Assembly: GCA_964016885.1 (NCBI GenBank)
Contig: OZ024747.1
Location: forward strand, 41,044,001 to 41,108,000
Length of the DNA stretch: 64,000 bases
Direction of reading: 5' to 3'
Source of the DNA: Eledone cirrhosa
Lineage: Eukaryota
Below, piece by piece: positions 1,360 through 59,494 of this stretch. Below the pieces are notes generated by a model that saw only the letters and a program-made list of their open reading frames with translations, was not told the DNA's origin and ran no database searches. Both the position numbers and the translations under genes were made by a program. How positions within the stretch are numbered: the first letter of the stretch is position 1; every line of letters begins with the position of its first letter.

Positions 1360-1402
1360 GTCACTGAAGAGGTCACAGAATGTGTGACGAAAGAAGTTTG
1401 AC
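1360..1402 (+). ncRNA. Type I hammerhead ribozyme motif
   Basis: gtca-CTGAAGA-g gtcaca gaatg tgtgac-GAAA-gaag-TT-tgac; truncated inverted copy at 1257-1294. Confidence 0.75.
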
Positions 1403-8694: not shown

Positions 8695-8964
8695 TATAGA
8701 TAGGTAAATATACAGGGTGTGTATGATTGTGTATAGAAGATTATATTAATAAGAGGAATTCCAACTTTGTCTGATTTACTCGTTTTATTTACAATCCTTT
8801 AAAATATATATAATGGTATTATAATGAAATAGTATGATAGAATATTAAATTCTAAGTGTTAATTGAACAAGTACTTTCATGCTTTCGCAATCTTCAGGTT
8901 CATGATATGTGGTGACAGTCGAGTTTGCAATGAAAATTGCAAACTCGACTGTCACCACATATCA

Positions 8965-9003
8965 TGAACCTGAAGATTGCGAAAGCATGAAAGTACTTGT
9001 TCA
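8965..9003 (+). ncRNA. Minimal type I hammerhead motif
   Basis: tgaac-CTGAAGA-t tgc gaaa gca t-GAAA-gtac-TT-gttca; palindromic stem III; identical minus-strand copy at 8864-8902. Confidence 0.82.
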
Positions 9004-15949: not shown

Positions 15950-18900
15950 TATTATTTCATTTATTGGCCACAAGGGCCGACATATAGGGGACAATACAAA
16001 AGACTGGGGCAGTGGGGTTTTACAGAAAAATCGAGTAAACAATATGAATAACAGTAACAAAGTAACAATAACAAAGTAGAAAATAAAGTAACAAGAAAAT
16101 TACAACAAGAAAAAATTCCCCAATAGGGGGGATGACCACCTAGGGTTCGCTCAGGTACCCCACCAGTCCTGAACGACCCGACTCTTCGAGAGCACTCTGG
16201 AAGGGCACCCCTCTCCTCCTCAAATTTACCTACCTACAGCCGCATGACCAGAGTAGGCCCACTCACACGGGCCATTCTCGCCACATTCACCCACCTTTCA
16301 GCAAATGTACTGTGGGGCAGTACTTCTCTCTCCACCCTCACCTTCCTTTCCAAGTGAAACTTGAAAATGTTGATGAGGGATTGGCCGAAGAGAAAAGTGT
16401 CTGTCTTCAGTCCTTTCAACCTGGTCCACCATACAATCTCTTTCGCTACTGCCACCAGACAGAGGAAAATTGCCTGCCCTTCCTGGCCAAAAGAAGGCGG
16501 CGGGTCGATCTTCACTATGGACTCGGCCGTTAGCCGGATCCGTTCTACACGCGACAACAGCTGTTCAACATAACTCCACAAGTCAGTAATGGACGAGTGC
16601 GTGCAGAACGGTTTCGTCGCTCTGCGCGCATCTTGGGCAGGTCCGTCTGACATCACTTCCGTGTCTGTATAGTTTATCTCTAACCACCAGTGCCCCCCGG
16701 TAGCACTGCCAAGCGAGGGATTTTTGGAAATTATCCAACGTCCCCGGCTCGAAAGTCCTCCAGTACAGACTGGTTAGTTCGACGTCGTTGACTCCCAGAT
16801 CTCTCCGAGTGCGTCGTTGCACTTTGCCACCACTAATCCTCTATAGAACTCGAGAGTTGAAGTTCCACTGACCGCATTGCCCGCCTGGAAGAGGGCAGTG
16901 AGAGCCTGGCAACATTCCAGATGCCAGTCACCCAGTCTCGGTCTCTTCTTGACGCAGGACTGCTGCTCAGTCAAAGAAACGAGCTGCGGAAAGGCTCATC
17001 TGACAAACGGCGACCACACCTGTTCACCGTTTAGGCAGAATATCTGGAGATGCCGCAGCCTCAGCGCGTGCCTGCGCATCATTAGCCACGGCATGCCCAG
17101 TCCTCCACGTAGAGGATGCTGGTAGCAGATGGACCGCCTTACCAGCGGAACCTGACCCTCCACAAGAATTTGAAGAGGAGCCGCTCCAAGATGGCGAGGC
17201 GCGAACGGGAGCAAGGGACGACGGTCAGACGGTAGTAGATGACGGACGCGATGTACGCGTTCGCCACCTCCGCCCGACCTTTCAGTGATAGCTTCATCCC
17301 AGCCCATTTCTGGGTGAGACTGGCTACTCTGCCCGTCACCTCGTCCCAATTCTTATCCACCTGGAGGTCTGGCCCGAACCAAACTCCTAGCAACTTTACC
17401 GGTCCGTCCGTCCAGCGCCTAACGACGCTGTTGGACGGCATGGACTTGCCTCTCCAGGTGCCGAGTTGCAAGCCCACCGACTTTTCCGGGTTAAGTTTTG
17501 CTCCCGTCAACCTTTCATATTCCTTCAATAAGTTGCCGACCACCTCGATTTCTGAGGTGTCCGACACCATCACGGTGATGCCATCCGCATAAGCCGACAC
17601 AGCCTTTCCGCGTCCCGGTTCGAGCGGGATACCCTGCAACAGCTCCAGCTTCTGCAGTAAAGGCTCGAGAGTCAATACGTACAGAAAGGAGGAGAGAGGG
17701 CACCCTTGACGGACCGATCGGGAGACCTGAAACGGTTCCGAGAGGTGGCCATTAATTTTGACCATCGAGCAGGTGCCGCTGTGAATTGCAGCGATCCAGC
17801 TTCTGAAGACGGGGCCGAAGCCAGCCGCCTTGAGGACAGCCTCCAGGTACCGATGGTCGACCATATCGAATGCTTTCGATTAATCTAAATTGATCAGAGC
17901 CCCACCGAAGCCAGGTTTACATCCTACACTCTCTATGATGTATCGCATTAGGTGGAGGTTGTCGTGTATGGACCTGGTTGGGATTGCGCAAGTTTGCGCC
18001 TCCCCAACCAAATCCCCGACGACAAGCGCCAACCTCTTCGCTAACACCCTGGCCAAAATCTTAAACTCTGTGTTGAGCAGAGTTATGGGCCTGAAATTGT
18101 CTAATGTGTCCCTCTTGTTCTCGTCTTTCCTTATCAGCGTCACTACGCCCCATCTCACAGAACTGGGAATACTCCCGTCTTGCTGCCAGTTGCAGTAGAG
18201 GGCTTCGAGGAGATTGGAGACCAAGTCTGGCATATTTACGTAAAGCTCGTAGGGCAGACCATCCAAACCGGGTGATTTGCACCTCATGCAGCCGACAAGG
18301 GCATCCTGAATCTCGGCTGAAGTAATTGGCCTTTCGCAGCGCCCAGCGTCAGCGGTCGAGAGTTGCGGCAAGCCATCTCTGATCCGCCGCTTCCCCCGAA
18401 CAACCGAGCAAAATGTTGGCGAAAGGCCTCACACATCCGCTTGGAATCGTTCAGCTCGTGTCCGTCTCGGTCCGTCAAAGACCGAATCGTGGTTTTATTA
18501 CCACGCTGTGCCTCTGCCACGCGGGCCCATCGAACAGCTTTGGTTCCCTCGTTTTTCAGAGCACGCGCCTTAGCTCTGACAATGCAACCTTCGTGTTTCG
18601 CATTGAAGAAATGGTGTAATGCCATTCTCGCCGCTAGCACGTCAGTTGCAATGCCACTACCAATAGCCTCGTCTAACTTATCTACCAACTCCCCCTCCTT
18701 TCTATTTTTCTCTAACGCTACTTCTTTGCTAAACTCTATCGACATTACTCTAATTTCTCTTTTGAGAGCCCCCCACCATCTATTGTTGACGACTCCCCCT
18801 GTCAACTTTTTCTTAACTAAATTGTTGACCTTGTCCCTGTAAGCCTTACGTGCCGGAAATGACATGTGTAGCTTCCAGTAACCAGGTCCTAACCTACCCG

Positions 18901-21826
18901 TCTTATCTAGGTCAACCATACAGATCACAAACTTGTGATCTGAATAGGCGACTGTTTCAAAACGTAGACAGCTTACACTATTTTTGTCTATTTTCCTAAT
19001 GAATATCCTGTCTATATACGATCTAGATGACCCTATGCGGTTAGCCCAGGTCCACACTGGCGCATGAGGGAAATCTAGTCGGTACCTGTCAGACAGTTGG
19101 AACTGGCTGATCAGGTTCTTGAGGCTTTTGCACCCCCGGCTCCTATCGGATATTCCCACACAGTCCCAGCGTGCGTCTAAGATGCCGTTCCAGTCCCCCC
19201 GCTAACAGTAAAGGGCGAGACGTGCCTAGAAAGGCTTCCAGGCGTCTAAAGAAGTCCGGCCGTCCTGCCCCAGTAGGAGCATAGACGGCCACCAGTCTAA
19301 AGGCACCACCTTCGTTATTGTTCACTCCAGGACCACCAACTTCCCGTCCGAGTCCCGGAAGATCGACCTTACCTCGAGATCCAGGCCTTTCCTAAACAGC
19401 ACTGCCACCCCGCCTCCCATTCCCGGCCGGCTAACAGATGCAAAGATCTGATAGTCGTCGAAAATGGGGGCTAGTGCGCGCGTGTCGGAAATCCTGGTCT
19501 CGCTGACGGCAATTACATCCATTTCTAGAGACCTGAGATCATTGAGCAGGTGACCCTGCTTCCAGAACGATCCCAGGCCTCGAACATTTAAACATCCTAC
19601 TCTTAATACGCCCATGTTGGCAGGTTAAAGAGAGAGAGAGGAAAGGTTTACTTACCTTCCGGGCTCTTGTGAAGGTCGGGTTGTTCGACCTCCATAGTTA
19701 GTGGGGTTTCTTTTGGGAACCCCTTTAAAAGTCTTGAAGTTGGTTTTACGTTCGGGGTTCCCACGTCCCGAGGAAAGCTGTCTCGTATTTCTTTGTATAA
19801 TTCGATCGACATTCGCACCAGAACCAAATCTTCCGGCACGCGAAATGTGCTCGATTTAAAAATGTCCTCCTCTTTTTTGTTTATTTTCACTTCGTGCTAC
19901 GAGGGCCATCAGTTCCTTGTTGGCCCTCCTGACGAGCACGAAGTTTTGTATGTTTTGTTGGTGTGATTTTATTTGTTTGCTTGGCTGTGGTGGTGATGGT
20001 TTTTGGCGGTGTTGTTTCGGTTGTCTGTGTTTGTTGTGAGTGCGGTGTCTGCGGTTTCAGATGTTTGTGTGTATATTTATTCTTGCGTCTGTTTAGGTTG
20101 TTTGCGTTTGGGGGATTCTGGTGATGGTGGTGTTGATGTTGGTGTTGTTGGAGAGATGTTTGTGTGGGTGGTGTCTGCGTATTTTATTGTGGGTGATTTT
20201 GTGCTTTGTTGATTTTTTTTTTCTTTTTGTGTTTCCTTTTTTGTATTTTGGGGGATTTGGGTTTTCCCTCATCTTCACTACTGGTAGATGAGGGGTCTGT
20301 GTCTGTAAGTGTGTCTGTATGTATATTTATGGTTTTATTGGTGTGTGCATTTTTTTTTGGGGGGGGGGATTTGACAGCTTTCCTCCTTTCCCCCCTGGGT
20401 GGTCAATGTTGGTGGTGGTCTTTCTATTGGTGTTGTTGTTGGTGGTTTTGCCGGTTCTGGTGTTGGTTGTGGTCCTCACCCCGGCGTCGGCAGCAGTGGA
20501 GCCTTTCGACCCCTTGCCTCTTTCAGCAGTTGAGGGAAGAAGGCTCACAAATGGGTTTTTTCCCCACAAACAAAACACTGCGGCCTTTTGCCTTCGGTCA
20601 TAATGTGAATGACCGTCCCATTCTGAAGGCGGATGTGGTCCGGGATTGTCTTTACATTCTCGGGCCTGATCTGGAGAAGTATCTCCAGGTCAACCTCGGA
20701 CCAGTCCTCTCTGGCCGTTCTGGTCACTTCTATAGGGATGGTATCCGTCCCCTCCACAATCACACATCCCAGAAGCCACCACATGTCAAGTCCTGGTGGG
20801 ATTCTGGGAATGCGGATACGGGCCGTTCTTTTTCCCATGTGGGAGGGGTACATTATGACCTTGCTGGTTTTGCAAGGAATCATAGCGTGTTTCATAGCGA
20901 GGGATTCTGACTTGAACAACACCGAAATGGTGCCGTACTGTCTGCCCCTCTCTATGTATTCGGTGTCTTCTCTGATGCACCTCAGCGCGACTTCGACATC
21001 TTCTTGTGGGATTAAAGCTGCCATTTTGGTTTGTACTGAGATGCATCTATAATGCACCGTTCTGCGCTCCACTGCCTCAATAGCTTCTACCGGGACAGTT
21101 AAGTTGGCTCAGGTTTGCTCTTGCTTGATGAGTTTCCATGCCTGAGCCAACTTTTCATCTTTGTTTGAGAGGTCCATGTTGAAGCATGGCCTCTTTTTTG
21201 CTACTGCCGCAGCGAAAGTGTTCTTCTTGTTTTCGTTGGGGGTGTTGTTGTCGTTGTCGTTGTTTTTGTTGGCGTTGTTGTTAGCACTGTCGCTGTTATC
21301 ATTGTTGTCTTTGTTGCCACCGTTGTTCTCGGTGCAGTTGGTATTCTTGCTGTTGGTGTTGTCGCTATTTGTTTTCATGTTAGTGGTGTTGATATTGTTG
21401 TTGCATTTGTTATTTTTTTTTTATCTGTATTTACGTTGTCGCTGTTATTGTCATTTTTTTCAAAATTAGAATTCTCATTGGTATCATTGGTGTCTTTGTT
21501 TACATTGTTTGTGGTGGTGTTTATGTTATCAATTTGTGTTAATTTCGCTGTAGCGATCCTCTCAATTTCTTCGTCGTTGTCGCACGACAGCAGACATATC
21601 GCTGTGGGGCGTGGCTCAGCCATGTTTTTTTTTTCTCTGTAAATTTTTTAACATGGAAAAAAAGTTCAAATATTTGGGACAAAAGGCCCAAATATTATAC
21701 ATTCCCCTTCACAGGGCAAAGTCTAAGGGCTTATATCCCTTACACAACAAGAAATATTTAACAACAAATAATTTTAACAGGAAAATAAAGCGACTTACTG
21801 GGAGCAAAAGACGTCCGAACAGACCA
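15950..21826 (-). mobile_element. Near full-length Tx1/L1-clade LINE with frameshifts
   Basis: ORF1 pieces from 21623 (Asn/Asp-rich N-terminus, zinc knuckle CFVCGEKTHL). ORF2 from 19615: APE endonuclease (CLNVRGL, SETR, SDH), RT (KSPGLDGLPYE, RQGCPLS, YADG), C-terminus to 16234. AATAAA plus (TAA)n tail near 15950. Confidence 0.93.
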
Positions 21827-21899: not shown

Positions 21900-23020
21900 G
21901 CCATAAGTGCAGTAAATTCCCGAGCTGCGTCTATTATTAGGTACAGTGCGGGAATTCTGAGATGGAATGTTACTGAACAAAAGAAATGGATAGGAAGACT
22001 AGAAAGCTATTGACTATCTACAACATGTTCCACAAAAGGAGTGATGCCGATAGACTCTACTTATCAGCATAGAGGACTGTGTTCAGATAGAGAAAAACAA
22101 CCTACACAAATACGTGACTGATAGTAGGGAGCCAATGCTCAGAATTGTACTGAAGGAGAGGACAATAGACCAGGGATGTCCAAGGAGGAAATAACAACAA
22201 GGAGAAAGAGCAACCTTCATGAAAAATCCCTTCATAGTGCCTTCTTTGAGAAAACTGAATTTAGAGATCCACAGACATGGAACTGGTTGAAAAGAGGAGA
22301 CCTTAAAAAGGCTACAGAAGGAATGCTAATGGCTGCGCAAGAGCAGGCCCTCAAAACGAAGTGGCTGAAACACCATATTTACAAGGAGGAGGCTAGCCCA
22401 CTGTGTAGGATCTGTGGAGTGAGACTGTGGCTCACATTGTATCCAGACTCACTATAAAGGCTGGAGACATGATGTGATGGGCAGGGTGATCCACTGGCAC
22501 CTATGCAAAGTAAACAATTTACCACATTCTGAGAAGTGGTATGAGCATAAGCCACAGTCGGTGATAGAAGACGATCAGGTGAAGGTGCTATGGGATTTTA
22601 GGATACAGACGGACAAGAAACTGGAACACAATAGGCCTGACCTGGTAGTTTTGGACAAAGAAAAAAGATCGTGCCTGATTGTAGACGTGGCCTGCCCATT
22701 TGACACGAGAGTGCAAAAAAAAGAGAGGGAGAAAATTAACCACTACCAGGACTTAAAGTGGGAGGTAAAAAGGATTTGGAACTGCTATGAAGTCAGAGTC
22801 GTCCCGATTGTCATAGGCGCACTAGGTACTATCTCAAAGAGTTTCCAAGGATGGTTAAAGAAAATTAGTCCAGCCCCGCTTTTTGGAACACTTCAAAAGG
22901 CATGCTTGCTGGGAATAGCAAGAACCCTCCGGTACGTCCTGAATATCTGAGGCTGCAGGTAGTGGCTTGATATTCATTTCAACAAACTTTCCAGTTAAAC
23001 ATCAATGACTGAGACTCAAA

Positions 23021-27949: not shown

Positions 27950-29400
27950 AAACAGAAAAAAGGAAACGAAATTTCATTTCCCACTCTTAGTACGGCTGTT
28001 ACTTAAATATAAGTATGTACACGTACATACATATATGTATACAGACTTAAAGTAGTATGTATATATATATATTCATACATGCACACATATATATATGTAC
28101 GTATGGATTCACCGAACATTTATTATAATGCTCGGTGTGTTTGTAAACAAACATCCCGTATTAAGCCGTAGTGTCTAGCTACCATCGTTGTTCGTTTGTT
28201 CAACACTGACAAAGGAACGCTGTACTAGTTTCAAGCTTATTAGCTATCGTCAGCAACGTATACCTTCCTGCCAGATTGTTGAACGTATATACTTACCTTA
28301 TGCATATTAACGGCTGAGTAGCACAATTTGCATATCGAGTGGGTTAATCGGCCGGGTGCACCGAAAACGATAAACAGAAAAAATGAAACGAAATTTCATT
28401 TCCCACTCTTAGTACGACTGTTACTTAAATATAAGTATGTACACCTACATACATATATGTATACAGACGTACAGTAGTATGTATATATATACATACATAC
28501 ACACATATATATTTGTACGTATGGATTTACCGAACATTTATTATAATGCTCGGTGTGTTTGTAAACAAACATCCCGTATTAAGCCATAGTGTCTAGCAAC
28601 CATCGTTGCTCGTTTGTTCAACGCTGACAAAGGAACGCTGTACTAGTTTCAAGCTTATTAGCTATCGTCAGCAACGTATACCTTCCTGGTAAGGATATAC
28701 GTTCAACAATCTGGCAGGAAGGTATACGTTGCTGATGATAGCTAATAAGCTTGAAACTGATACAGCGTTCCTTTGTCAGTGTTGAACAAACGAGCAACGA
28801 TGGTTGCTAGACACTACGGCTTAATACGGGATGTTTGTTTACAAATACACCGAGCATTATAATAAATGTTCGGTGAATCCATACGTACATATATATATGT
28901 GTGCATGTATGTCTATATATATACATACTACTGTACGTCTGTATACATATATGTATGTACGTGTACATACTTATATTTAAGTAACATCCGTACTAAGAGT
29001 GGGAAATGAAATTTCGTTTCATTTTACCTGTTTATCGTTTTCGGTGCACCCGGCCGATTAACCCACTCGATATGCAAATTGGGCTACTCAGCCGTTAATA
29101 TGCATAAGGTAAGTATATACGTTCAACAATCTGGCAGGAAGATATACGTTGCTGACGATAGCTAATAAGCTTGAAACTAGTACAGCGTTCCTTTGTCAGT
29201 GTTGAACAAACGAGCAACGATGGTTGCTAGACACTACGGCTTAATACGGGATGTTTGTTTACAAACACACCGAGCATTATAATAAATGTTCGGTGAATCC
29301 ATACGTACATATATATATATATGTGTGCATGTATGTATATATATATATATATACTACTGTACGTCTGTATACATATATGTATGTACGTGTACATACTTAT
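27950..29400. repeat. About 420-bp hammerhead-bearing tandem plus inverted array
   Basis: Hammerheads acgttg-CTGAYGA-t agct aata agct t-GAAA-ctag-TA-cagcgt at 28217-28259(-), 28635-28677(-), 28726-28768(+, stem III ctga) and 29146-29188(+); inversion near 28690. Confidence 0.9.
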
Positions 29401-41049: not shown

Positions 41050-44000
41050 ATAATGGCAATAATAATAAAAAAGAAAAGGAAACAAAAGAATAGGGAATAT
41101 AGAATATAGAGAAAAGGAGAAAATGAAAGAAGAGACAGAACGGGAAGGGGATGGGTGGAAAGAGCTCTGGTATTGTAGAAGAGAGGGGAGGGTGATTGGG
41201 CTTTGGGCCTAGGGTAAGGGGGCAGAAGGGCTGCGCCCTTCGGACAGGACCGCAAAAACATTCCCGAGGACGATGGCCAGTGACGCCCGCTGCAACAGCC
41301 ACCCTACATCGTGGGGCTCCTTCTTCAGACGGGTCGCCGACGTTCCGATCTTGCAGAGGAGTTCGGCAGTACGGGGTCCAAGTACGCCTGAGGTCTCGAC
41401 GGCGACCGGTGCGAAGAGGACGCGGCCGGACAATCCCCGGTATTTGTTTATCTTCCTTTCCTCTGGGGTTTGTGGCCGAAGCGACTAAGTTGGAGACGGA
41501 CCGCGTGCCTCAGCAGGTGGCGTCCCAGATGAGGGATCTACCTCCTTCGAATGAGAAGAGGGTGATTTCGTCGGGGCGCTTGCCATCTCAGCGGTCTAGG
41601 CCTGTTGACTCCAGTTGAGATGGAAAGACAGCTGCGTCCAGGCCCCTTCTCAATATGTCCTTGAGAGCGGCGTGTCGGGGGGAACCGGCCTGCGCTCTGG
41701 CGGCAATACAGAGGGTGCAGGCCGAACTTGTCAACAACCGCCCCACAGCGGCATTTATATGGATCACACTCGCCGCTGTTGGGCTGAGAAGCGGAGTCGA
41801 GGGAGGCAAGGTGGTGTTGGTCCAAGTCAGACGTGACCCGCAATTAATTTCGTCCTAGTTACGTTGGACCGTAGTATACTGGGGAATAGAGAGGCCAGAA
41901 CCTGTTCCCTCTCAGGGGCCAGATCAGGTTTGGCCGTCTGACTGAGAACCTCGCTGACGAGAGCACGACAGGAGGAGATAGAGGAAAGGTAGGCAGATAA
42001 AGCTAGGTCCAAAGCTGATCAGAGACCGAGGCACCGAACCTCACTGGGAGTGTCGCCTGTTGCCAGCCTGCGCTGTCGAACCTGACATTGCAGATGAGTT
42101 CCGCATAGCGTCGAATGGTGGCATCAAGTTCCCAGAGAAGATGTGTGTCGGAGTGGCAAGGTGCTCCGCGCCGCGTGAATGTGAATTTAGGGAGAGTGAA
42201 ACAGTTCTTCAAGAGGAAGAGTGTCAATGAGGGGCAGCCTCTCAGCTAATCGGGACAAATCCGCATTCGTCTCCAGGTATTCTCTTATGGCTTTCGGGGG
42301 AATGGGTGGAGGGGGCGAGAATGCATGCAGCGTCCTTGGGTGTCAGCCGTAGCAGATGTTGGTCACCTTAGACTTGGTTGGGTTGATCTCAAGTTGAAAG
42401 ATCTTTAGCGCTGGGATGATTTGTCGAAGGTCCCCAACTACCGTCTCAGCCGGGCTGCTCTAGGTCGCGCCGTCGAGGTACCAGACGTTGAGGGGTGACC
42501 GGACCGCCCGGGCTACATCGTCGATTGCCAGTGCGAATAAGAGCGAGCCGATTGGGTGCCCCTGCTGGACACCTGTGGCGGAAGTAACCTTGTTGTCGGT
42601 GGCCATAAGTGAGCTAGGTCTTCCGTACGAAAGGTGAACGAGGGGGTAGATAGAGGGGAATCGTCTGAAATATGTCTCTAGGACGTGATCCCGTCTAACA
42701 CTGTTGAAGGCGTTAGTCATATCCAGATTTACGAGGAGGTGGGGTGACGAGGGAGGCGCGTGCTCTATGAAGTGTCTAGCCGCATGAGCTGTGGCTTCAC
42801 AACCGCACTTGATTCCCACTCCGAGCTGGACTGGGCTTAGTACCTCACTCATGTCATCTTTGACTGAGTTGCAAGCTCTCTTGCCTGCAAGTCGTCGGAA
42901 GACGTTACCAACCGCGATTGAGCGGACGCCTCCGTCATTCTTCCTCTTGGCGGTCAATCTGTCTGGGAAGAAAAGATCGAGGGCATGGATGGGCAAGTTA
43001 GCGCGGAGGAGACAGTTGGTGAGTGCTGTTAAATACTGGAGTAGTCGGGCACCTGCCTCCACCACGTGAGATCTCGGAGGTGACCTGGGTGCAAGCCGCC
43101 CACTCCGTCACTGTTTCTACCAGGAAAAGATCTTAGGGTGGCTACTACGTCCTCGCTGAACGCTGCCGGAAAAAGATGGCTGGCCAGATCTGGAGTGCCC
43201 CTGATGTCGGCAGGAGGGTCCGGATGTTTGAAGCGTTGACAAAATATCCGGTGTTGGTCGGAGCACAGCATCGCTTGAGGCCAGCACACGAACAACCATT
43301 GATACGTCGCCCTCAATTAGTTTGAGGTTGACTCTGTCCCGGAGACGTTTCGTGCTGCAGTAGGTGAATTGAGGTCGTTGTGTTGGCACTGGTGGACAGC
43401 ATAAGAGTGCCGAGAGGTTTGCGAGAGAAGGTTCACAGAAAGAGGCGACATTGCCCTTGAGCCTCGAAGCCATGGAGGGACCAGACTTGTTTCTCATCGT
43501 AGGGTTCCCCACCAACGGGATTCCGAGTACGACAGTAGCAAAGCTGAACAGTCTGGTCTAGTCCCGTGAATCGTCAGAGTCAAGCGCTCGGTCGATTGAA
43601 GTCGCTAGCGCTTCAGCCACGTGAGTGCGGGCAGACCTGGATATCCTGGTGATGACTCTCCGCGACTGCCTGAGTCGGGAGATCTCCACCAGATACACGT
43701 CCGAGCCGAGTGGGTTCAGGTCCCCGTTGGATCGGGTGCCCGTGACCACCTGTGGTGTCGTGGTGGATAGGAATGATGGGCAGTGCCACCGGTGGAAGGA
43801 ATCCGACGCGCGCCTTATGAGTTTGACGCAAGAAAGGTGGAAGAAGCTGTTACAGTTGGAACAGTACCTTCCTCTCTTGCGTCTGTTGAGCGTGGTGCAT
43901 GAGTGGCACTGGTCAACCTCCCGTGGGGTGGAAAGTTGAGGAGAGGTGGGCATTACGTTCAGAGGTGCGAGAGGTCAAATCTTCCGCCATATGGGTAAGA

Positions 44001-50736: not shown

Positions 50737-52270
50737 CATGCACCCATAGACGCGCATGTACAGACACATGGATATAGGCCCACGCGCACACACATATATA
50801 ATTACAGACACTCACAAATGTGCTTCTGTGTGTATACATGTCCCTGCGGGCACTCTTTAACACATAGCATTACATACGCATATAGATACACACATGTGTG
50901 TCGGCACTATGAGTAATCCCATTAGTGTTATCTGTTGCTACTGGGGCTATGCCTATGCTATTGATCCGAGTATTCTCTCTATCTGATTCCACGTCCTGTG
51001 CTGTTTTTACTCTGTCACTATCTCTAGTTCCCCCCATCTCGTTTTGTGTTTGTGTTGAGCATCTGCCTGCGTGGTCTATCGTCCGCGTGTGCCTTCCTCT
51101 GTCTTAGTGTCGGTTTTCTGTCCCTGCGGTAACCTATGTTGCTAGCCCTATTCTTAGATGCGTGTTCCCAGGTGTTCTGCCTACTTATGGAAGTGCTATT
51201 GCTATCCTCGTATGCGCGTTTCTCGCCGCTAGGCCCTTCCCTGTCCGGGATATACACTATGGTTTCTGTGTAACCGGCCCTGTGCAGTACCTCATTATAA
51301 TAATCGGCGTACTGGTTAAACACGTCTGCGTTAGCCGACAGGGTGGATAGGCGATTGGAGACCCCTTTTACTATGGCGTCTATTACAGACTTGGTGTGAT
51401 TCGAGTGACTGCTTACATATTGCAGGTTCTCGTTGGGCTTGTGGTAAGGCCGGTGTATGCCTGTATTCAGTTCTAGAGTTACGTCAATGAAATTCACCGT
51501 CTTAGTGCTAGGTTCTATCACCACGGATAAGCCGTGCTGTTTAAAAAAATGCGATATGCGCTTCCTCATACGCTCCAGCTGGCTGGGCTTTAGGGAGCGG
51601 AAAGTAAATAGTGCGTCGTCTCTATATATTCCTACGCCGATCCCTGGGATCTCCTCTGCTAGCCTTTGGAGGAGATATATTCCCACCAGGTCCGACACCT
51701 GCGCAGAGTCACTCGACCCCATCGTAATATCGCAACTATCGGTTCTGTTCCTCCTTTCCCATAATTTATTGTCGAAGCTAATTAACATCTTTCTCGCTGC
51801 TACTATAATGTCTACTTCTCCTCTAGTGAGGTTGGACTTAGCCATGGCGCTCATGAGAGCCTTGTTCACGATTACTGGTGATACGGACGCGTTGTAATTC
51901 ACTATGTCCAACTGAATGAAATTTACCTGATGTTTGCTATCTAATAGCGAGAACCAGTCTATTACCTCCTTGGTGGAGGTCCATAAGCTAAGCCTAGTTC
52001 TAGTCCTAAGTACCGGTAGGATCCTATCTGTGATATTCTTACTGGCCCTACCTAGGTTTGACTTGGAGCGTGCTATTAACCTAACCGGGAGATTAGTCCT
52101 AAAGTCTAATTTGTGATCCTTAATGGATATCCTCAGTTTTCTGGGTACATAGAGTTCTGTCCGATCATCTATTTCTAGTCCTGTCATTACCCCTATGGTC
52201 GTGGCGTTGATGCTATCAAGGTTGTCTTGTCCTGTGGTCCTATAATTTTTCCTAATCTCTTTCCCGATGC
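50030..52270 (-). mobile_element. Penelope-like element: RT ORF plus 3' pLTR with hammerhead
   Basis: ORF 51024-52298 has PLE RT motifs (IKDHKLDFRTNLPVRLI, QLDIVNY, TMGSSDSAQVSDLVGIYLL, YRDD, FIDVTLEL...PYHKPN); hammerhead at 50085-50177 on the same strand; TA-rich flanks. Confidence 0.88.
50085..50177 (-). ncRNA. Hammerhead motif in the Penelope 3' pLTR
   Basis: acgtat-CTGAGGA-(about 60 nt stem II region)-GAAA-caactg-TA-atacgt. Confidence 0.78.
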
Positions 52271-52679
52271 ATAAATATATATATATATCAGAAGCCACAT
52301 TACATTAGAAGCCACTTACCGTAATTGCCATGCAGTGGGACTGAGTTCGAAGCCACGTGATTATGTAAATCAAATGTCTTGACTACACAATTTTGCCTGC
52401 GCTTATTTGTTAATTTTTTTCATATTTTATTTATCAGCGACATTAAAATCTCCCATACTGCATATCCTATGTCAGAGAAGTAGTATTTACGTGTTTCATG
52501 TGTTGACAACATATATATGTTAATATTCTATCGCTTTGCTTTCAATATTCAATTTCATACACAGTCTATCTCCCGAGACATTTTTATAACGAAAGTGCTT
52601 CAAAAACAACAATGGTGATAATATAATCATATAATATGAATACTATATAATTCAATATTCCTATCAATATAATACTTAC

Positions 52680-52772: not shown

Positions 52773-52879
<107 letters not shown>

Positions 52880-53394
52880 ATAACAGAGATAGTTTAAAGC
52901 TAAACTCTGACTGGTAACCATCTCACTCAACAAACATTAGGTTATATTAAAATATAAACCCAATTTAAGTGTGTGGGGTGCTAACAAAATGTATAATGTG
53001 GAAAAACCAGTTGTATTATTTTATGAGATATAATTAAAGTTAAAGTATATCTCTCTTTCCAAACAATTGTTTCATTATAAGTTTTCTAGAAGTTTGGGAG
53101 AATGTTTCCAGTTTATGTAGAAGCCTAATATATATTCATGTAAGAATATATTTAGGTGGGCACTTATAAATCGTCAGTGGAAGCCCATTAAATATTGATA
53201 TAAGAAAACAATTTCTTACCGCTGTCAAAAATCATGTCCGTAAAGTAGCTCTCTCTCACCTCGAATGACCGCCAAATTTGAAATTCCGGCCGTTTTTGAC
53301 TGAGGAAGTATCATAGCGACACGAAGCGGGAAGGGGAGACAACCCACGAAATGAGGAAAAAAATATAATAATGATATAGATATATCACTGTCTG

Positions 53395-54755: not shown

Positions 54756-56254
54756 CGATCGTAAAGCAGTGAAGTATATTTCTAATGACTTGATTTTTTT
54801 ATTTCATTGTTTTAACTTATATATATATATAAGAAAACTTATAATGAAACAATTGTTTGGAAAGAGAGATATACTTTAACTTTAATTATATCTCATAAAA
54901 TAATACAACTGGTTTTTCCACATTATACATATTGTTAGCACCCCAAACACTTAAATTGGGTTTATATTTTAATATAACCTAATGTTTGTTGAGTGAGATG
55001 GTTACCAGTCAGAGTTTAGCTTTAAACTATCTCTGTTATTGTATTAAATATTTACTCTTGATTGGCCAGAGGTGTTTATTTCCAGGTACCTTATGAATTT
55101 GACTTTCCGAATTTACTACTGTTGTGAAATATTGTGGCTTTTTTTGGTTGTAACTTCTCTGTTTTTTAGCCTAGGAATATATATATATGCCTACGTATAT
55201 AATTACATGCATATATGTATTTATTTTCTTTTATTAATTGAGTTCTTTACACGAGGAATTAATATTGGTTTTGAAATAACTAATTAACCCGCGTGTGCTT
55301 TATATTTTACTCTTAATAATTCGGCCGGAGAATTATATTCCCATTTGCCCTTTATAGCATAACTTTCTGCATTTAATGCGGTTATGAGAAGCGGTTCTTA
55401 TTCGGGTACAACTTCTGATTTAGCCTAAGAAAATATCTATATGCGTGTGTAATTTATACAAGCATATATTTATTTTTTTATTTTCAATTGAGTTCTTAAA
55501 CACGTTGGATTGATAATGTTTACAAAAAAACTAATTAACCCGCGTGTATATTATTTTTTTTTCCTCATTTCGTGGGTTGTCTCCCCTTCCCGCTTCGTGT
55601 CGCTATGATACTTCCTCAGTCAAAAACTGCTGGAATTTCAAATTTGGCGGTCATTCGAGGTGAGAGGGAGCAAATTTAAGGACAAGATTTTTGACAGCGG
55701 TAAGAAATTGTTTTGTTATATCAATGTTTAATGGGCTTCCACTGATGATTTATAAGTGCCCACCTAAATATATTCTTACAAGAATATATATTAGGCTTCT
55801 ACATAAAATGGAAACATTCTCCCAAACTTGTAGAAAACTTATAATGAAACAATTGTTTGGAAAGAGAGATATACTTTAACTTTAATTATATCTCATAAAA
55901 TAATACAACTGGTTTTTCCACATTATACATATTGTTAGCACCCCAAACACTTAAATTGGGTTTATATTTTAATATAACCTAATGTTTGTTGAGTGAGATG
56001 GTTACCAGTCAGAGTTTAGCTTTAAACTATCTCTGTTATTGTATTAAATATTTATATATATATATATTTATATATATATATTTAGTATAACAATATTTGT
56101 TTCGACACACGATTTCATATAAAAAACCTCGCAAAACTAATTCATCGCCGCTATATATATTTATATATATATATATTTATATATATTTATATATATATAT
56201 ATATTTATATATATTTATATATATATATTTATATATATATATATTTATATATAT

Positions 56255-57510
56255 ATGTGAATATAGACATAGAATATTCGAAAATATTCTGTATGTTTAT
56301 AATAAACATTTTGAAGACCTAATCGCTATAGAATAGAATACGTCACGTATTACAATTAGATTCTCGATAAAAGCAAGGGAAGTAATCTACGCGTTTCATT
56401 CTTGTTAGAAATCTTCAGGACTACATATCCAGTGCTTTTATCGAGAATGACACAGCTAGAGACTTATAGAATACTTAGCTGTGTACAGGAACTGGTTTGA
56501 AAGAGCGGTTGCCGGTCCGGCAGAAATTAGAAATTGGAATAAATGCTCTGAAATAGCGATATATATGTGAATATAGACATAGAATATTCGAAAATATTCT
56601 GTATGTTTATAATAAACATTTTGAAGACCTAATCGCTATAGAATAGAATACGTCACGAATACATTCTCGATAAAAGCACTGGATATGTAGTCCTGAAGAT
56701 TTCTAACAAGAATGAAACGCCTAGATTACTTCCCTTGCTTTTATCGAGAATCTAATTGTAATACGTGACGTATTCTATTCTATAGCGATTAGGTCTTCAA
56801 AATGTTTATTATAAACATACAGAATATTTTCGAATATTCTATGTCTATATTCACATATATATCGCTATTTCAGAGCATTTATTCCAATTTCTAATTTCTG
56901 CCGGACCGGCAACCGCTCTTTCAAACCAGTTCCTGTACACAGCTAAGTATTCTATAAGTCTCTAGCTGTGTCATTCTCGATAAAAGCACTGGATATGTAG
57001 TCCTGAAGATTTCTAACAAGAATGAAACGCGTAGATTACTTCCCTTGCTTTTATCGAGAATCTAATTGTAATACGTGACGTATTCTATTCTATAGCGATT
57101 AGGTCTTCAAAATGTTTATTATAAACATACAGAATATTTTCGAATATTCTATGTCTATATTCACATATATATCGCTATTTCAGAGCATTTATTCCAATTT
57201 CTAATTTCTGCCGGACCGGCAACCGCTCTTTCAAACCAGTTCCTGTACACAGCTAAGTATTCTATAAGTCTCTAGCTGTGTCATTCTCGATAAAAGCACT
57301 GGATATGTAGTCCTGAAGATTTCTAACAAGAATGAAACGCGTAGATTACTTCCCTTGCTTTTATCGAGAATCTAATTGTAATACGTGACGTATTCTATTC
57401 TATAGCGATTAGGTCTTCAAAATGTTTATTATAAACATACAGAATATTTTCGAATATTCTATGTCTATATTCACATATATATCGCTATTTCAGAGCATTT
57501 ATTCCAATTT
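56255..57510. repeat. 310-bp hammerhead-bearing tandem array (retrozyme-like) with inverted block
   Basis: gtagtc-CTGAAGA-t ttct aaca agaa t-GAAA-cgcg-TA-gattac at 56382-56424(-), 56687-56729 (cgcc), 56997-57039 and 57307-57349(+); period 310; inversion near 56660. Confidence 0.92.
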
Positions 57511-57593
57511 ATATATATATATATATTTATATATATTTATATATATATATATTTATATATATTTATATATATATATATATTTATATATTTATA

Positions 57594-57634
<41 letters not shown>

Positions 57635-59081
57635 TCTTACATAGAGCACTCTTCACTCCTATGACTTTTTCAATTTTCAACGGAAACTTCAATATATATA
57701 TATATATATAATACAATAACAGAGATAGTTTAAAGCTAATCTCTGACTGGTAACCATGTCACTCAACAAACATTAGGTTATATTTTAATATAAACCCAAT
57801 TAATTGTTTGGGGTGCTAACAATATGTATTATGTGGAAACGCCGGTTGTATTATTTTATGAGATATAATTAAAGATAAAATATATCTCTCTTTCCAAACA
57901 ATTGTTTCATTATAAGTTTTCTACAAATTCGGAGAATATTTCCAGTTTATGTAGAAGCCTAATATACATTCATGTAAGAATATATTTAGGTGGGCACTTA
58001 TAAATCATCAGTGGAAGCCCATTAAACTTTGATATAAGAAAAAATTCTTACCGCAGTTAAAAATCGTGTCTGTTAAGTTGCTCCTTCCCGCATCGAATGA
58101 CCGGCAAATTTGAAATTCCAGCAGTCTTTGACTGAGGAAGTATTATAGCGTCACTAAGCGGGAAGGGGAGACAACTACGATCCACGAAAGGAGGAAAAAA
58201 AATAATATACACGCGGGTTAATCAGTTTTTTCGAAAACATTATCAATCCAACGTGTTAAGAACTCAATTGAATATTAAAAAAATAAATATATGCGTGTAT
58301 AAATTACACACGCATATAGATATTTTCTTAGGCTAAAATCAGAGGTTGTACCTGAATAAGAAACCGCATCTCGTAACCGTAGCAAATACGGAAAGTTATG
58401 CTTTAAAGGGCAAATGGGAATGTAAATCTCCGGCCGAATTAAGAGTAAAATATAAAACACACGCGGGTTAATTAGTTATTTCAAAACTAATATCAATTCC
58501 TCGTGTAAAGAACTCAATTAATTTAAAAAAATAAATGTATGCATGTAATTATATACATAGGCATATATATATTTTCTTAGGCTAAAAAACAGAGAAGTTA
58601 CAACCAATAAAAATCACAATATCGCACAACAGTAATAAATACGGAAAGTCAAATTTATAAGGAACCTGGAAATAAACACCTCTTATATATATATATATAT
58701 TTCTCTTTCAAAATACAGACAGTGATATACCTATATCATTATTTTGTCAAACTTCCATCAACACTACATAATGATGAGCCTGCCGTTAAATTATTGTTCC
58801 TCACAAATAACTACTAATATACTTTAGAAAGCATGGATATTGCAACATCTCATACCTAACAATTGTCGAATAAACCAATAAACCAACCCAAAAGGGAAAT
58901 AAGAGTTAGATACAACAGTTATGCATGATTCTTTACGTGGGCCTGTGAAATCTTGTTAATGGGTCTGGAGTTGACCCAAGGAAAATAGGTGGGCTTTGAA
59001 ATTATTTTTATTTTTATTTTTTTACTGGCGTAAAATTATGAAAATACAAACTACTTTACGTTATTTCTAAAGGCAAATAAA

Positions 59082-59270
59082 GGTGGTGGAATGGCAGTAT
59101 CGGTAGAGGGTCGGACGCATGCTTTTACGCATAGAGTTACGGCCCTTGCTATTCTGAGTTCAAATCCCGCCGAGGTTAACTTTGCCTTTCATCCTTACGG
59201 GGTTGATAAAATAAAGTACCAGTAATGCACTGGGATAATTGCTGGCCTTGTGCCAAAAGTAGAAACAGTT
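59082..59270 (+). mobile_element. tRNA-derived SINE with target-site duplication
   Basis: ttatttctaaaggcaaataaa is duplicated on both sides. Confidence 0.92.
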
Positions 59271-59494
59271 ATTTCTAAAGGCAAATAAAGGATCAGAGTA
59301 GTCAGTGTTTATATATTTTACTACATTTTACTTTTGGAAATAAAATGTATTTCGTGTTACATGAAATTTATATTTGTGCTTATGTGGACCTGAAATTTTG
59401 TTTGACACCAAAATTTGAGCCACAGGATATATAAGGTTGAGAAATACTGTGGTAAACAACCCTTTAACAAATACTTACAACTAATTTGATATTA

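What the first reader, a model, noticed from the sequence alone, without database searches (positions are those of the whole stretch)
56255..57510. Near-identical 310-bp retrozyme-like array predicting a 310-nt circular RNA
Three plus-strand hammerheads lie exactly 310 nt apart in almost identical non-coding units, with an inverted block in front and TA tracts on both sides. Cleavage at successive GUA sites would release a 310-nt monomer; the palindromic ACGCGU stem III suits dimeric cleavage between neighbouring units. Concatemers fit rolling-circle reverse transcription of a circRNA (inference). High identity suggests recent activity.
Basis: partly seen in the sequence, partly recalled or inferred. 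Interest (0 to 1): 0.85.

Follow-up and report, generated by a model that had tools for sequence, protein, structure and literature searches.

The report
Two-armed hammerhead retrozyme with Penelope ends
A 310-base protein-free repeat with a hammerhead ribozyme motif lies in about 8,800 copies across this genome as head-to-head tandem arrays, and their fixed ends and shared variants suggest that each array was likely copied from one small, probably circular, RNA by a Penelope-type retrotransposon enzyme working from both sides of the cut.

Summary
The array is real. It is one insertion of a young family: 8,767 exact hammerhead-core matches genome-wide, at least about 1,400 insertions. The 'inverted block' is a second arm. 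Arms lie head-to-head, with 3' ends pointing out into (TA)n and a 12-16 nt target duplication. Ends are not at the ribozyme cut. One arm stops at unit position about 190-201, the other at about 227-234, one of each in 59 of 59 facing pairs. This matches the published 'tail' of Penelope-like elements (PLEs). Both arms share one monomer haplotype (67 of 71; shuffled mean 9), including locus-private variants, yet rare changes are not mirrored (0 of 47). So each array passed through a single-monomer template that was copied twice independently, for several turns. Best reading: a non-LTR retrozyme whose RNA circle is reverse-transcribed by PLE machinery from both cut strands. Not shown: the RNA, its cleavage, circularity, and the autonomous partner. 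Rfam gives no hammerhead hit. One of the three plus-strand hammerheads here is mutated (CUA). The class is known; the insertion-level evidence for mobiliser and template was not found in my literature searches.

The parts
56152..56256 (.). left (TA)n target tract
56243..56256 (+). left copy of the 14-nt target-site duplication (its last 8 nt also match the element end)
   Evidence: read
56249..56660 (-). inverted arm, 1.3 units; its outer end is the 'no-tail' end at unit position 201 (internal TATATAT tract), its inner end near unit position 100
56388..56418 (-). hammerhead core in the inverted arm, intact
56657..56661 (.). head-to-head junction of the two arms with a few filler bases; unique to this locus
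   Evidence: read
56662..57510 (+). direct arm, 2.7 units of 310 nt; outer end is the 'tail' end at unit position 227-229
56693..56723 (+). hammerhead core 1, with G>C at 56721 (triplet CUA, loop palindrome broken)
56973..57061 (+). hammerhead domain of unit 2: predicted 16-bp closing stem 56973-56988/57046-57061, helix I 56997-57002/57034-57039, core 57003-57033, helix II 57011-57014/57019-57022 with U.U at its base, helix III one A-U pair with a CGCG loop; predicted cut after 57033
   Evidence: read from the sequence
57034..57343 (+). predicted 310-nt monomer between two intact GUA sites
   Evidence: fold -72.5 kcal/mol, z -5.2, 0 of 100 shuffles as stable
57313..57343 (+). hammerhead core 3, intact
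57483..57510 (+). 'tail': the stretch between the two fixed end sites (unit 202-229), present at this arm's end and absent at the other arm's end
57507..57520 (+). right copy of the 14-nt target-site duplication (its first 4 nt also match the element end)
   Evidence: read
57510..57633 (.). right (TA)n target tract

Best explanation
This is one of at least about 1,400 young insertions of a 310-nt protein-free hammerhead repeat, built as two head-to-head tandem arms with fixed ends in (TA)n, and it was likely made by a Penelope-like retrotransposon enzyme that would prime from both cut strands on a single, probably circular, monomer RNA. Steps: (1) an array is transcribed and neighbouring hammerheads cut as dimers after GUA, releasing 310-nt monomers that a host ligase closes (inferred from the motif and from other animals); (2) a Penelope-type RT-endonuclease cuts a (TA)n tract with a stagger of about 12-16 nt (duplications seen; enzyme inferred); (3) one DNA end starts cDNA at unit position about 227 with 2-5 nt of pairing, the other anneals to the internal UAUAUAU tract and starts at about 190-201 (end positions and the one-of-each rule are shown; priming is inferred); (4) each cDNA runs several turns on the same monomer sequence and stops at a random point (shared haplotype, arm lengths and independence of the arms are shown; a circle is inferred); (5) the two inner ends are joined, mostly through short overlaps (shown), likely by host repair.
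For: Family size and dispersal: 7,952 + 815 exact cores, controls 0; 1,245 tail ends and 1,426 no-tail ends running into TA. One-of-each rule: 59 of 59 facing end pairs in the first 194 Mb of C1, P about 2e-18. In sequence, 106 of 106 two-armed insertions among 119 read follow it; 52 of these were not picked as mixed pairs. The same layout is published for PLEs: a 30-40 bp tail often at only one end, an inverted 5'-truncated copy, (TA)n targets (PMC8557442), 8-10 bp duplications (PMC3846280), and two internal RT start sites with both strands cut and extended (PMC11167929). Single template: arms agree in 67 of 71 informative insertions against a shuffled mean of 9.4 (maximum 19 in 10,000), 27 haplotypes, 13 insertions with private variants fixed in both arms. 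Independent synthesis: 0 of 47 rare tail-arm substitutions are mirrored, and the no-tail arm is the longer in 45 of 106. Several turns: both arms exceed 310 nt in 91 of 106, whereas a linear monomer offers at most 165 nt upstream of the start site. No pile-up of inner ends at the cut (2 of 162, 5.7 expected). Ribozyme under constraint: 0 of 12 array-fixed variants in the 43-nt hammerhead hit the 12 core positions, P about 0.02. Young PLE families with open RT-GIY-YIG frames and TA ends exist in the genome.
Against: No RNA, cleavage or circle was observed. No Rfam hammerhead model matches. Helix II has U.U at its base and the monomeric hammerhead fold scores +2.1 kcal/mol, so cleavage may be weak; 8 of 9 Xenopus dimers did not cleave in vitro (10.64898/2026.07.22.740005), and the Anolis PLE inserted uncleaved RNA with no need of its hammerhead (PMC11167929). 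No autonomous element sharing sequence with the unit was found. L268 and L279 carry two haplotypes, and some arrays repeat a variant in a few scattered units (L031, L039, L051, L052, L055, L241, L245, L246, L284), so later recombination or multimer templates also occur. Single-unit changes near the cut were 6 against 3.1 expected. Arm concordance shows one source, not strictly one molecule.
Confidence: 0.68

Rival explanations
1. The same Penelope-type double priming, but on long uncleaved concatemer transcripts of an existing array, with arrays lengthened and homogenised later by unequal crossover or conversion (the local-amplification view of 10.64898/2026.07.22.740005). No circle is needed.
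For: The Anolis PLE uses unprocessed RNA in vitro (PMC11167929). A homogeneous source array would also give concordant arms. Repeated variants in scattered units (L031, L245, L246, L241) show some local duplication.
Against: New variants become fixed in every unit of both arms (13 insertions), which needs a one-monomer bottleneck somewhere. Rare changes are not shared across arms (0 of 47). Array length does not rise significantly with the density of single-unit changes (rho 0.13, P 0.25, 85 arrays). Core positions are spared among fixed variants.
Confidence: 0.15
2. The template is a cleaved linear monomer, and the RT jumps from its 5' end back to its own 3' end, mimicking a circle.
For: It explains the monomer bottleneck equally well. 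Six single-unit changes lie within 5 nt of the cut against 3.1 expected.
Against: None of those six changes is an indel scar, inner ends do not pile up at the cut (2 of 162), and jumps between molecules would mix the 27 haplotypes, which is seen in 2 of 71.
Confidence: 0.11
3. One cDNA folds back on itself, or a DNA-level foldback or TIR transposon makes the inverted arm as a copy of the first.
For: Inverted arms with one haplotype; a few near-palindromic junctions (L065, L241, L055); self-priming was proposed for rotifer Penelopes (PMC3846280).
Against: The no-tail arm is longer than the tail arm in 45 of 106, the tail arm is longer in most others, and 0 of 47 rare substitutions are mirrored. 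The two ends differ by 26-35 nt instead of being identical termini, and 12 of 119 insertions have one arm with a fixed 3' end and a variable 5' end.
Confidence: 0.04
4. Assembly artefact or ordinary satellite.
For: Inverted tandem repeats are hard to assemble; two loci break at gaps (L038, L054).
Against: Junctions differ at every locus, ends obey a strict rule, duplications flank the insertions, and run X1 shows TA-joined loose ends at both end sites (57172, 57203), although X1 may be the assembly's own sample.
Confidence: 0.02

Closest known systems
Animal non-LTR retrozymes (Cervera and de la Pena 2020, PMC7229834; parts 2 and 4 of 6 and passages read)
   Same: Non-coding AT-rich tandem units in the 150-450 bp range, one type I hammerhead per unit, weak helix III with palindromic tetraloop, U.U at the base of helix II as in axolotl HHR_Amex2, duplications longer than 4 bp.
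   Different: There the circles were shown and the mobiliser and multi-copy cDNA step were proposed. Here the RNA is unshown, but insertions carry two head-to-head arms with two fixed start sites and one haplotype. The word 'inverted' does not occur in that paper's main text.
Penelope-like elements, Neptune/Nematis/Naiad/Poseidon types (PMC8557442 and PMC3846280, passages; PMC11167929, parts 1-2 of 4)
   Same: Inverted 5'-truncated arm, tail at one end only, (TA)n or AT-rich targets, 8-16 nt duplications, internal RT start sites, type I hammerhead upstream of the ends.
   Different: No ORF; both arms are long concatemers of a 310-nt unit; the tail rule is strict here (59 of 59), whereas it is described as optional or frequent, and in vitro no strand difference in start site was seen.
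Xenopus retrozymes as pLTR derivatives (bioRxiv 10.64898/2026.07.22.740005; parts 1 and 3 of 5 and passages read)
   Same: Non-autonomous hammerhead tandem repeats tied to PLEs.
   Different: That link rests on co-occurrence and sequence similarity, and tandems are ascribed to local amplification. Here no parent was found by sequence, the link is the insertion signature, and arrays appear born multi-unit.
L1 twin priming (recalled, no call)
   Same: Both target strands prime on one RNA and give an inverted 5' part.
   Different: In L1 the first cDNA stops near the internal primer. Here inner ends are spread over the unit and both arms run for several turns.

Membership tests
Animal non-LTR retrozyme | Tandem non-coding units of 150-450 bp, GC under 50% | tested here: met
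   310 nt, 34% GC (106 of 310); no ORF of 150 aa or more in the array
Animal non-LTR retrozyme | Type I hammerhead in each unit, at least two consecutive complete motifs | tested here: met
   Core and helices read; units 2 and 3 intact; matches the description in PMC4209133. Rfam models do not detect it.
Animal non-LTR retrozyme | Dispersed multi-copy, no LTR layout, duplications longer than 4 bp | tested here: met
   duplications of 12-16 nt where the target is not pure TA
Animal non-LTR retrozyme | Self-cleavage of the transcript | not testable with these tools
   Indirect only: fixed variants spare the core, P about 0.02
Animal non-LTR retrozyme | Expressed as linear and circular monomer RNA | not testable with these tools
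   Only contigs of runs of unknown kind could be laid
Non-autonomous Penelope-like element | Inverted 5'-truncated copy joined head-to-head | tested here: met
   106 of 119 insertions
Non-autonomous Penelope-like element | Tail of about 30-40 nt at one end only | tested here: met
   Ends at 189-201 and 226-234; 59 of 59
Non-autonomous Penelope-like element | AT-rich or (TA)n target | tested here: met
Non-autonomous Penelope-like element | 3' end shared with an autonomous partner's pLTR | tested here: inconclusive
   No match among the PLE families sampled in 1.9 Mb of fetched DNA; only 150 of 10,596 GIY-YIG candidates were scored
Autonomous Penelope-like element | RT plus GIY-YIG ORF | tested here: not met
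   No ORF in the array; no PLE frame abuts the arrays at the 39 loci tested
Plant LTR retrozyme | Type III hammerhead in LTRs, 4-bp duplication | tested here: not met
   Type I topology, tandem units, 12-16 nt duplications
Foldback or TIR DNA transposon | Identical inverted termini | tested here: not met
   The two ends always differ by the tail

The most novel reading that the evidence does not exclude
Each insertion is a fossil of double rolling-circle target-primed reverse transcription: two subunits of a Penelope RT-endonuclease dimer, each holding one cut strand, start about 30 nt apart on the same 310-nt RNA circle and spin off two independent concatemers. Recurrent sense-strand A>G changes in predicted helices (unit positions 11, 12, 28, 82, each on 2-4 haplotype backgrounds) would be A-to-I edits of that RNA written back into the genome.
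Probability: 0.4. Interest if true: 0.85.

Novelty: new variant of a known kind. Interest (0 to 1): 0.72.

Why it matters
Which enzyme mobilises animal retrozymes, and whether tandem arrays are born from an RNA circle or grow later, are stated as open in PMC7229834 and 10.64898/2026.07.22.740005; how PLEs form inverted arms and the tail is stated as open in PMC8557442 and PMC11167929. This family gives over a thousand young insertions with readable haplotypes, showing the PLE signature on a retrozyme, a strict one-tail rule and a one-monomer bottleneck. A 310-nt RNA with two mapped start sites is a small substrate for an in vitro test of circle-templated, two-ended insertion. If true, a eukaryotic RT would write multi-copy arrays from a tiny circle into microsatellites, which bears on satellite birth and on RNA-templated DNA writing.

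Tried and rejected
Rfam at gathering score and at E<=10: no hammerhead family. Sequencing runs: no RNA holder listed. Runs X2, X3 and X6 each give one 340-nt contig closing on itself at depth 10-26; their kind is unknown and a tandem DNA array at low depth gives the same contig, so this is not counted as evidence of a circle. Parent search: GIY-YIG search, two protein searches, 104 PLE-bearing loci compared with the unit, end comparison of about eight families and all 1.9 Mb held found only non-coding sister families; sisters beside PLE frames (L070, L125) are separated from them by TA and read as separate insertions. The first 38 loci were biased to the window's minor haplotype (815 of 8,767 cores), so haplotype tests used a position-ordered set from C1 instead. 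L054 (older, diverged) was left out of end and arm counts; L269 was split into two insertions; two fragmentary alignment rows in L233 were dropped; variants within 25 nt of inner edges and 15 nt of outer edges were ignored. L306 and L312 count as discordant but look like tie or junction noise by my reading. The excess of T>C over A>G among single-unit changes (23 vs 5, P 0.004; 14 vs 4 under stricter counting; 18 vs 8) may reflect RT errors but is not relied on. Forty-one unpaired no-tail ends were not read. Earlier findings of the scan: none returned. Eight paper searches listed no report of inverted two-armed retrozyme arrays with tails, nor of editing in retrozymes; supplements of PMC7229834 and of the bioRxiv preprint were not seen and may show such loci. 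The host species was not determined.

Full report
Observation. The window holds a period-310 array at 56662-57510 (2.7 copies, 99%) preceded by an inverted 412-nt block (56249-56660), between TA tracts. Hammerhead cores start at 56693, 57003 and 57313 on + and at 56418 on -. Read from the sequence, the motif is type I: helix I of 6 bp, CUGAAGA, helix II of 4 bp with U.U at its base, GAAA, one A-U pair capped by CGCG, then GUA. This fits the canonical animal type I hammerhead with a weak palindromic helix III that needs a neighbour to fold (PMC4209133, passages); a U.U base of helix II is reported for axolotl HHR_Amex2 (PMC7229834, passage). The self-complementary hexamer pairs at -7.5 kcal/mol, while the monomeric fold scores +2.1. 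The first plus core has G>C at 56721. Rfam detects no hammerhead. The predicted monomer 57034-57343 folds better than all 100 shuffles (z -5.2).

Family. The genome is 3.0 Gb. Exact 35-nt patterns find 7,952 cores of CUGAUGA type and 815 of the window's CUGAAGA type, with 0 for the reversed controls. Among the first 39 loci, 167 of 210 full units equal the window's unit (this set was ranked by identity). Across 85 arrays the rate of single-unit changes is 0.14 per 310 nt, so the family is very young.

Ends. Arms are joined head-to-head with hammerhead-sense 3' ends pointing outward. Ends fall at unit 189-201 (an internal TATATAT tract) or 226-234, far from the cut at 62/63. Genome-wide there are 1,426 and 1,245 such ends running into TA; no two-armed insertion read had two no-tail ends, so there are at least about 1,400 insertions. 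I paired the first 100 no-tail ends with the 84 of the first 100 tail ends in the same 194 Mb of C1: 59 facing pairs, all one of each (P about 2e-18), 66 ends unpaired. Of 20 unpaired tail ends then read, 15 were two-armed with a variant no-tail end and 5 single-armed. In all, 106 of 119 insertions read are two-armed and all are mixed; 54 were picked from the pairs, 22 by a tail end only and 30 by identity alone; 12 have one arm and 1 breaks at a gap. Where the target is not pure TA, duplications of 12-16 nt including end overlaps are visible (window 14, L036 12, L048 16, L058 15, L067 12). Inner junctions overlap by 1-12 nt in 60 of 106, are blunt in 11, carry inserts in 24 and overlap by more than 12 nt in 11. 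Contigs of run X1 show TA loose ends at both sites.

Comparison with PLEs. An inverted truncated copy, a 30-40 bp tail often at one end only and (TA)n targets are PLE hallmarks (PMC8557442, passages; PMC3846280, passages). A purified Anolis PLE cuts and extends both strands, starts at two internal sites that bound the tail, and is predicted to be a dimer; its hammerhead was not needed for insertion in vitro (PMC11167929, parts 1-2 of 4). The genome has many PLEs: 10,596 GIY-YIG candidates (150 scored) and a family with many 775-aa open frames at 97-98% identity (RT below and GIY-YIG above Pfam cut-off in L099), themselves ending in TA at two sites. Calling it Neptune-like rests on my reading of a cysteine motif. 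None shares sequence with the unit, so the partner is unidentified.

Template. In 81 insertions taken in positional order along C1, 71 had both arms covering the informative sites. Arms agree in 67, against 9.4 on shuffling (maximum 19 of 10,000), with 27 haplotypes; 13 insertions carry a variant seen nowhere else in the set yet fixed in both arms. L268 switches haplotype in both arms and L279 gains a variant part-way; L306 and L312 look like noise. The arms are not copies of each other: 0 of 47 rare tail-arm substitutions recur at the mirror unit, and the no-tail arm is longer in 45 of 106. Both arms exceed one turn in 91 of 106, and insertions reach 9.8 kb among those read in full and 15 kb by end coordinates. 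A linear monomer offers only 139-165 nt upstream of the start sites, and inner ends do not gather at the cut (2 of 162). The simplest account is one monomer sequence read twice, independently, for several turns, which is what a circle allows. A homogeneous concatemer transcript could give concordant arms, but not the repeated fixing of new variants in all units without a monomer step. Scattered repeated variants in about nine arrays show that later duplication or multimer templates add to this.

Selection and editing. None of 12 array-fixed variants within the 43-nt hammerhead touches the 12 core positions (P about 0.02); they lie at N7, in loop II, or keep pairing, and one turns the U.U into A-U (17 of 81 insertions). 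Fixed substitutions relative to the window's unit are A>G 11 and T>C 4, against 8 and 18 among single-unit changes (P 0.011). A>G at 11, 12, 28 and 82 recurs on 2-4 backgrounds, all in predicted A-U pairs. This suggests A-to-I editing of the RNA (recalled enzyme preference), but polarity is unknown for some sites and the counts are small.

Sister families. Two older non-coding families of about 315-320 nt share unit 121-297 at 73-80% and carry different hammerheads inside different long closing stems, one with the U3-A8 core. One has 2,816 candidates (40 scored). By eye 12 of 14 readable two-armed loci of it have one tail end and one no-tail end, L177 has two no-tail ends and L169 another end.

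Verdict. The class is known, and circle-templated multi-copy cDNA by PLEs was proposed in PMC7229834; the recent preprint ties retrozymes to pLTRs but ascribes tandems to local amplification. Eight searches listed no insertion-level account like this one; supplements were not seen. The architecture and the one-monomer bottleneck are shown; cleavage, circle and enzyme are inferred.

Noticed in passing
window 54832-56054, 57701-58683 (-), 52865-53370 (-): A separate non-coding family of about 1,000 nt with internal 250-nt repeats, ending in TA; the first copy is a partial tandem (223 nt + 1,000 nt, 100% identical). Two copies face each other around the retrozyme and mimic long inverted termini. 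No hammerhead found by pattern.
   Followed up: partly
window 51024-52304 (-): 426-aa frame of a decayed PLE-like RT; 42,110 candidates in the genome, with a younger related family at about 99% mutual identity that also forms two-armed insertions.
   Followed up: partly
window 8872-8995: Head-to-head pair of hammerhead-like cores; the same motif lies near the 3' end of a GIY-YIG PLE family (L102, L109).
   Followed up: partly
window 28226-29179: Four hammerhead-like cores of another family, two on each strand, about 420 nt apart; a similar motif is in L154.
   Followed up: no
window 1364-1398: Hammerhead-like core also seen at L101, L149, L191, L201 and L110; likely a further small family.
   Followed up: no
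L189 6870-6905, L117 6630-6680, L118: Autonomous PLE ends carry hammerhead-like motifs with a U3-A8 core and a palindromic helix III, read by eye.
   Followed up: no
L108 8500-8706, L110 3629-3826: Short palindromic insertion in TA with a hammerhead-like core about 70% like unit 288-310 plus 1-57.
   Followed up: no
L279: 28A>G is absent from the outer four units of the tail arm, present in its inner two and in the whole no-tail arm; this could time-stamp tail-first synthesis, or be conversion. One case.
   Followed up: no
window 16234-19201, 22423-22950, 42460-43107: Broken frames resembling non-LTR retrotransposon RT and endonuclease, by eye.
   Followed up: no
window 59077-59277: About 200-nt dispersed repeat with over ten relatives in the window at 73-94% identity.
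   Followed up: no
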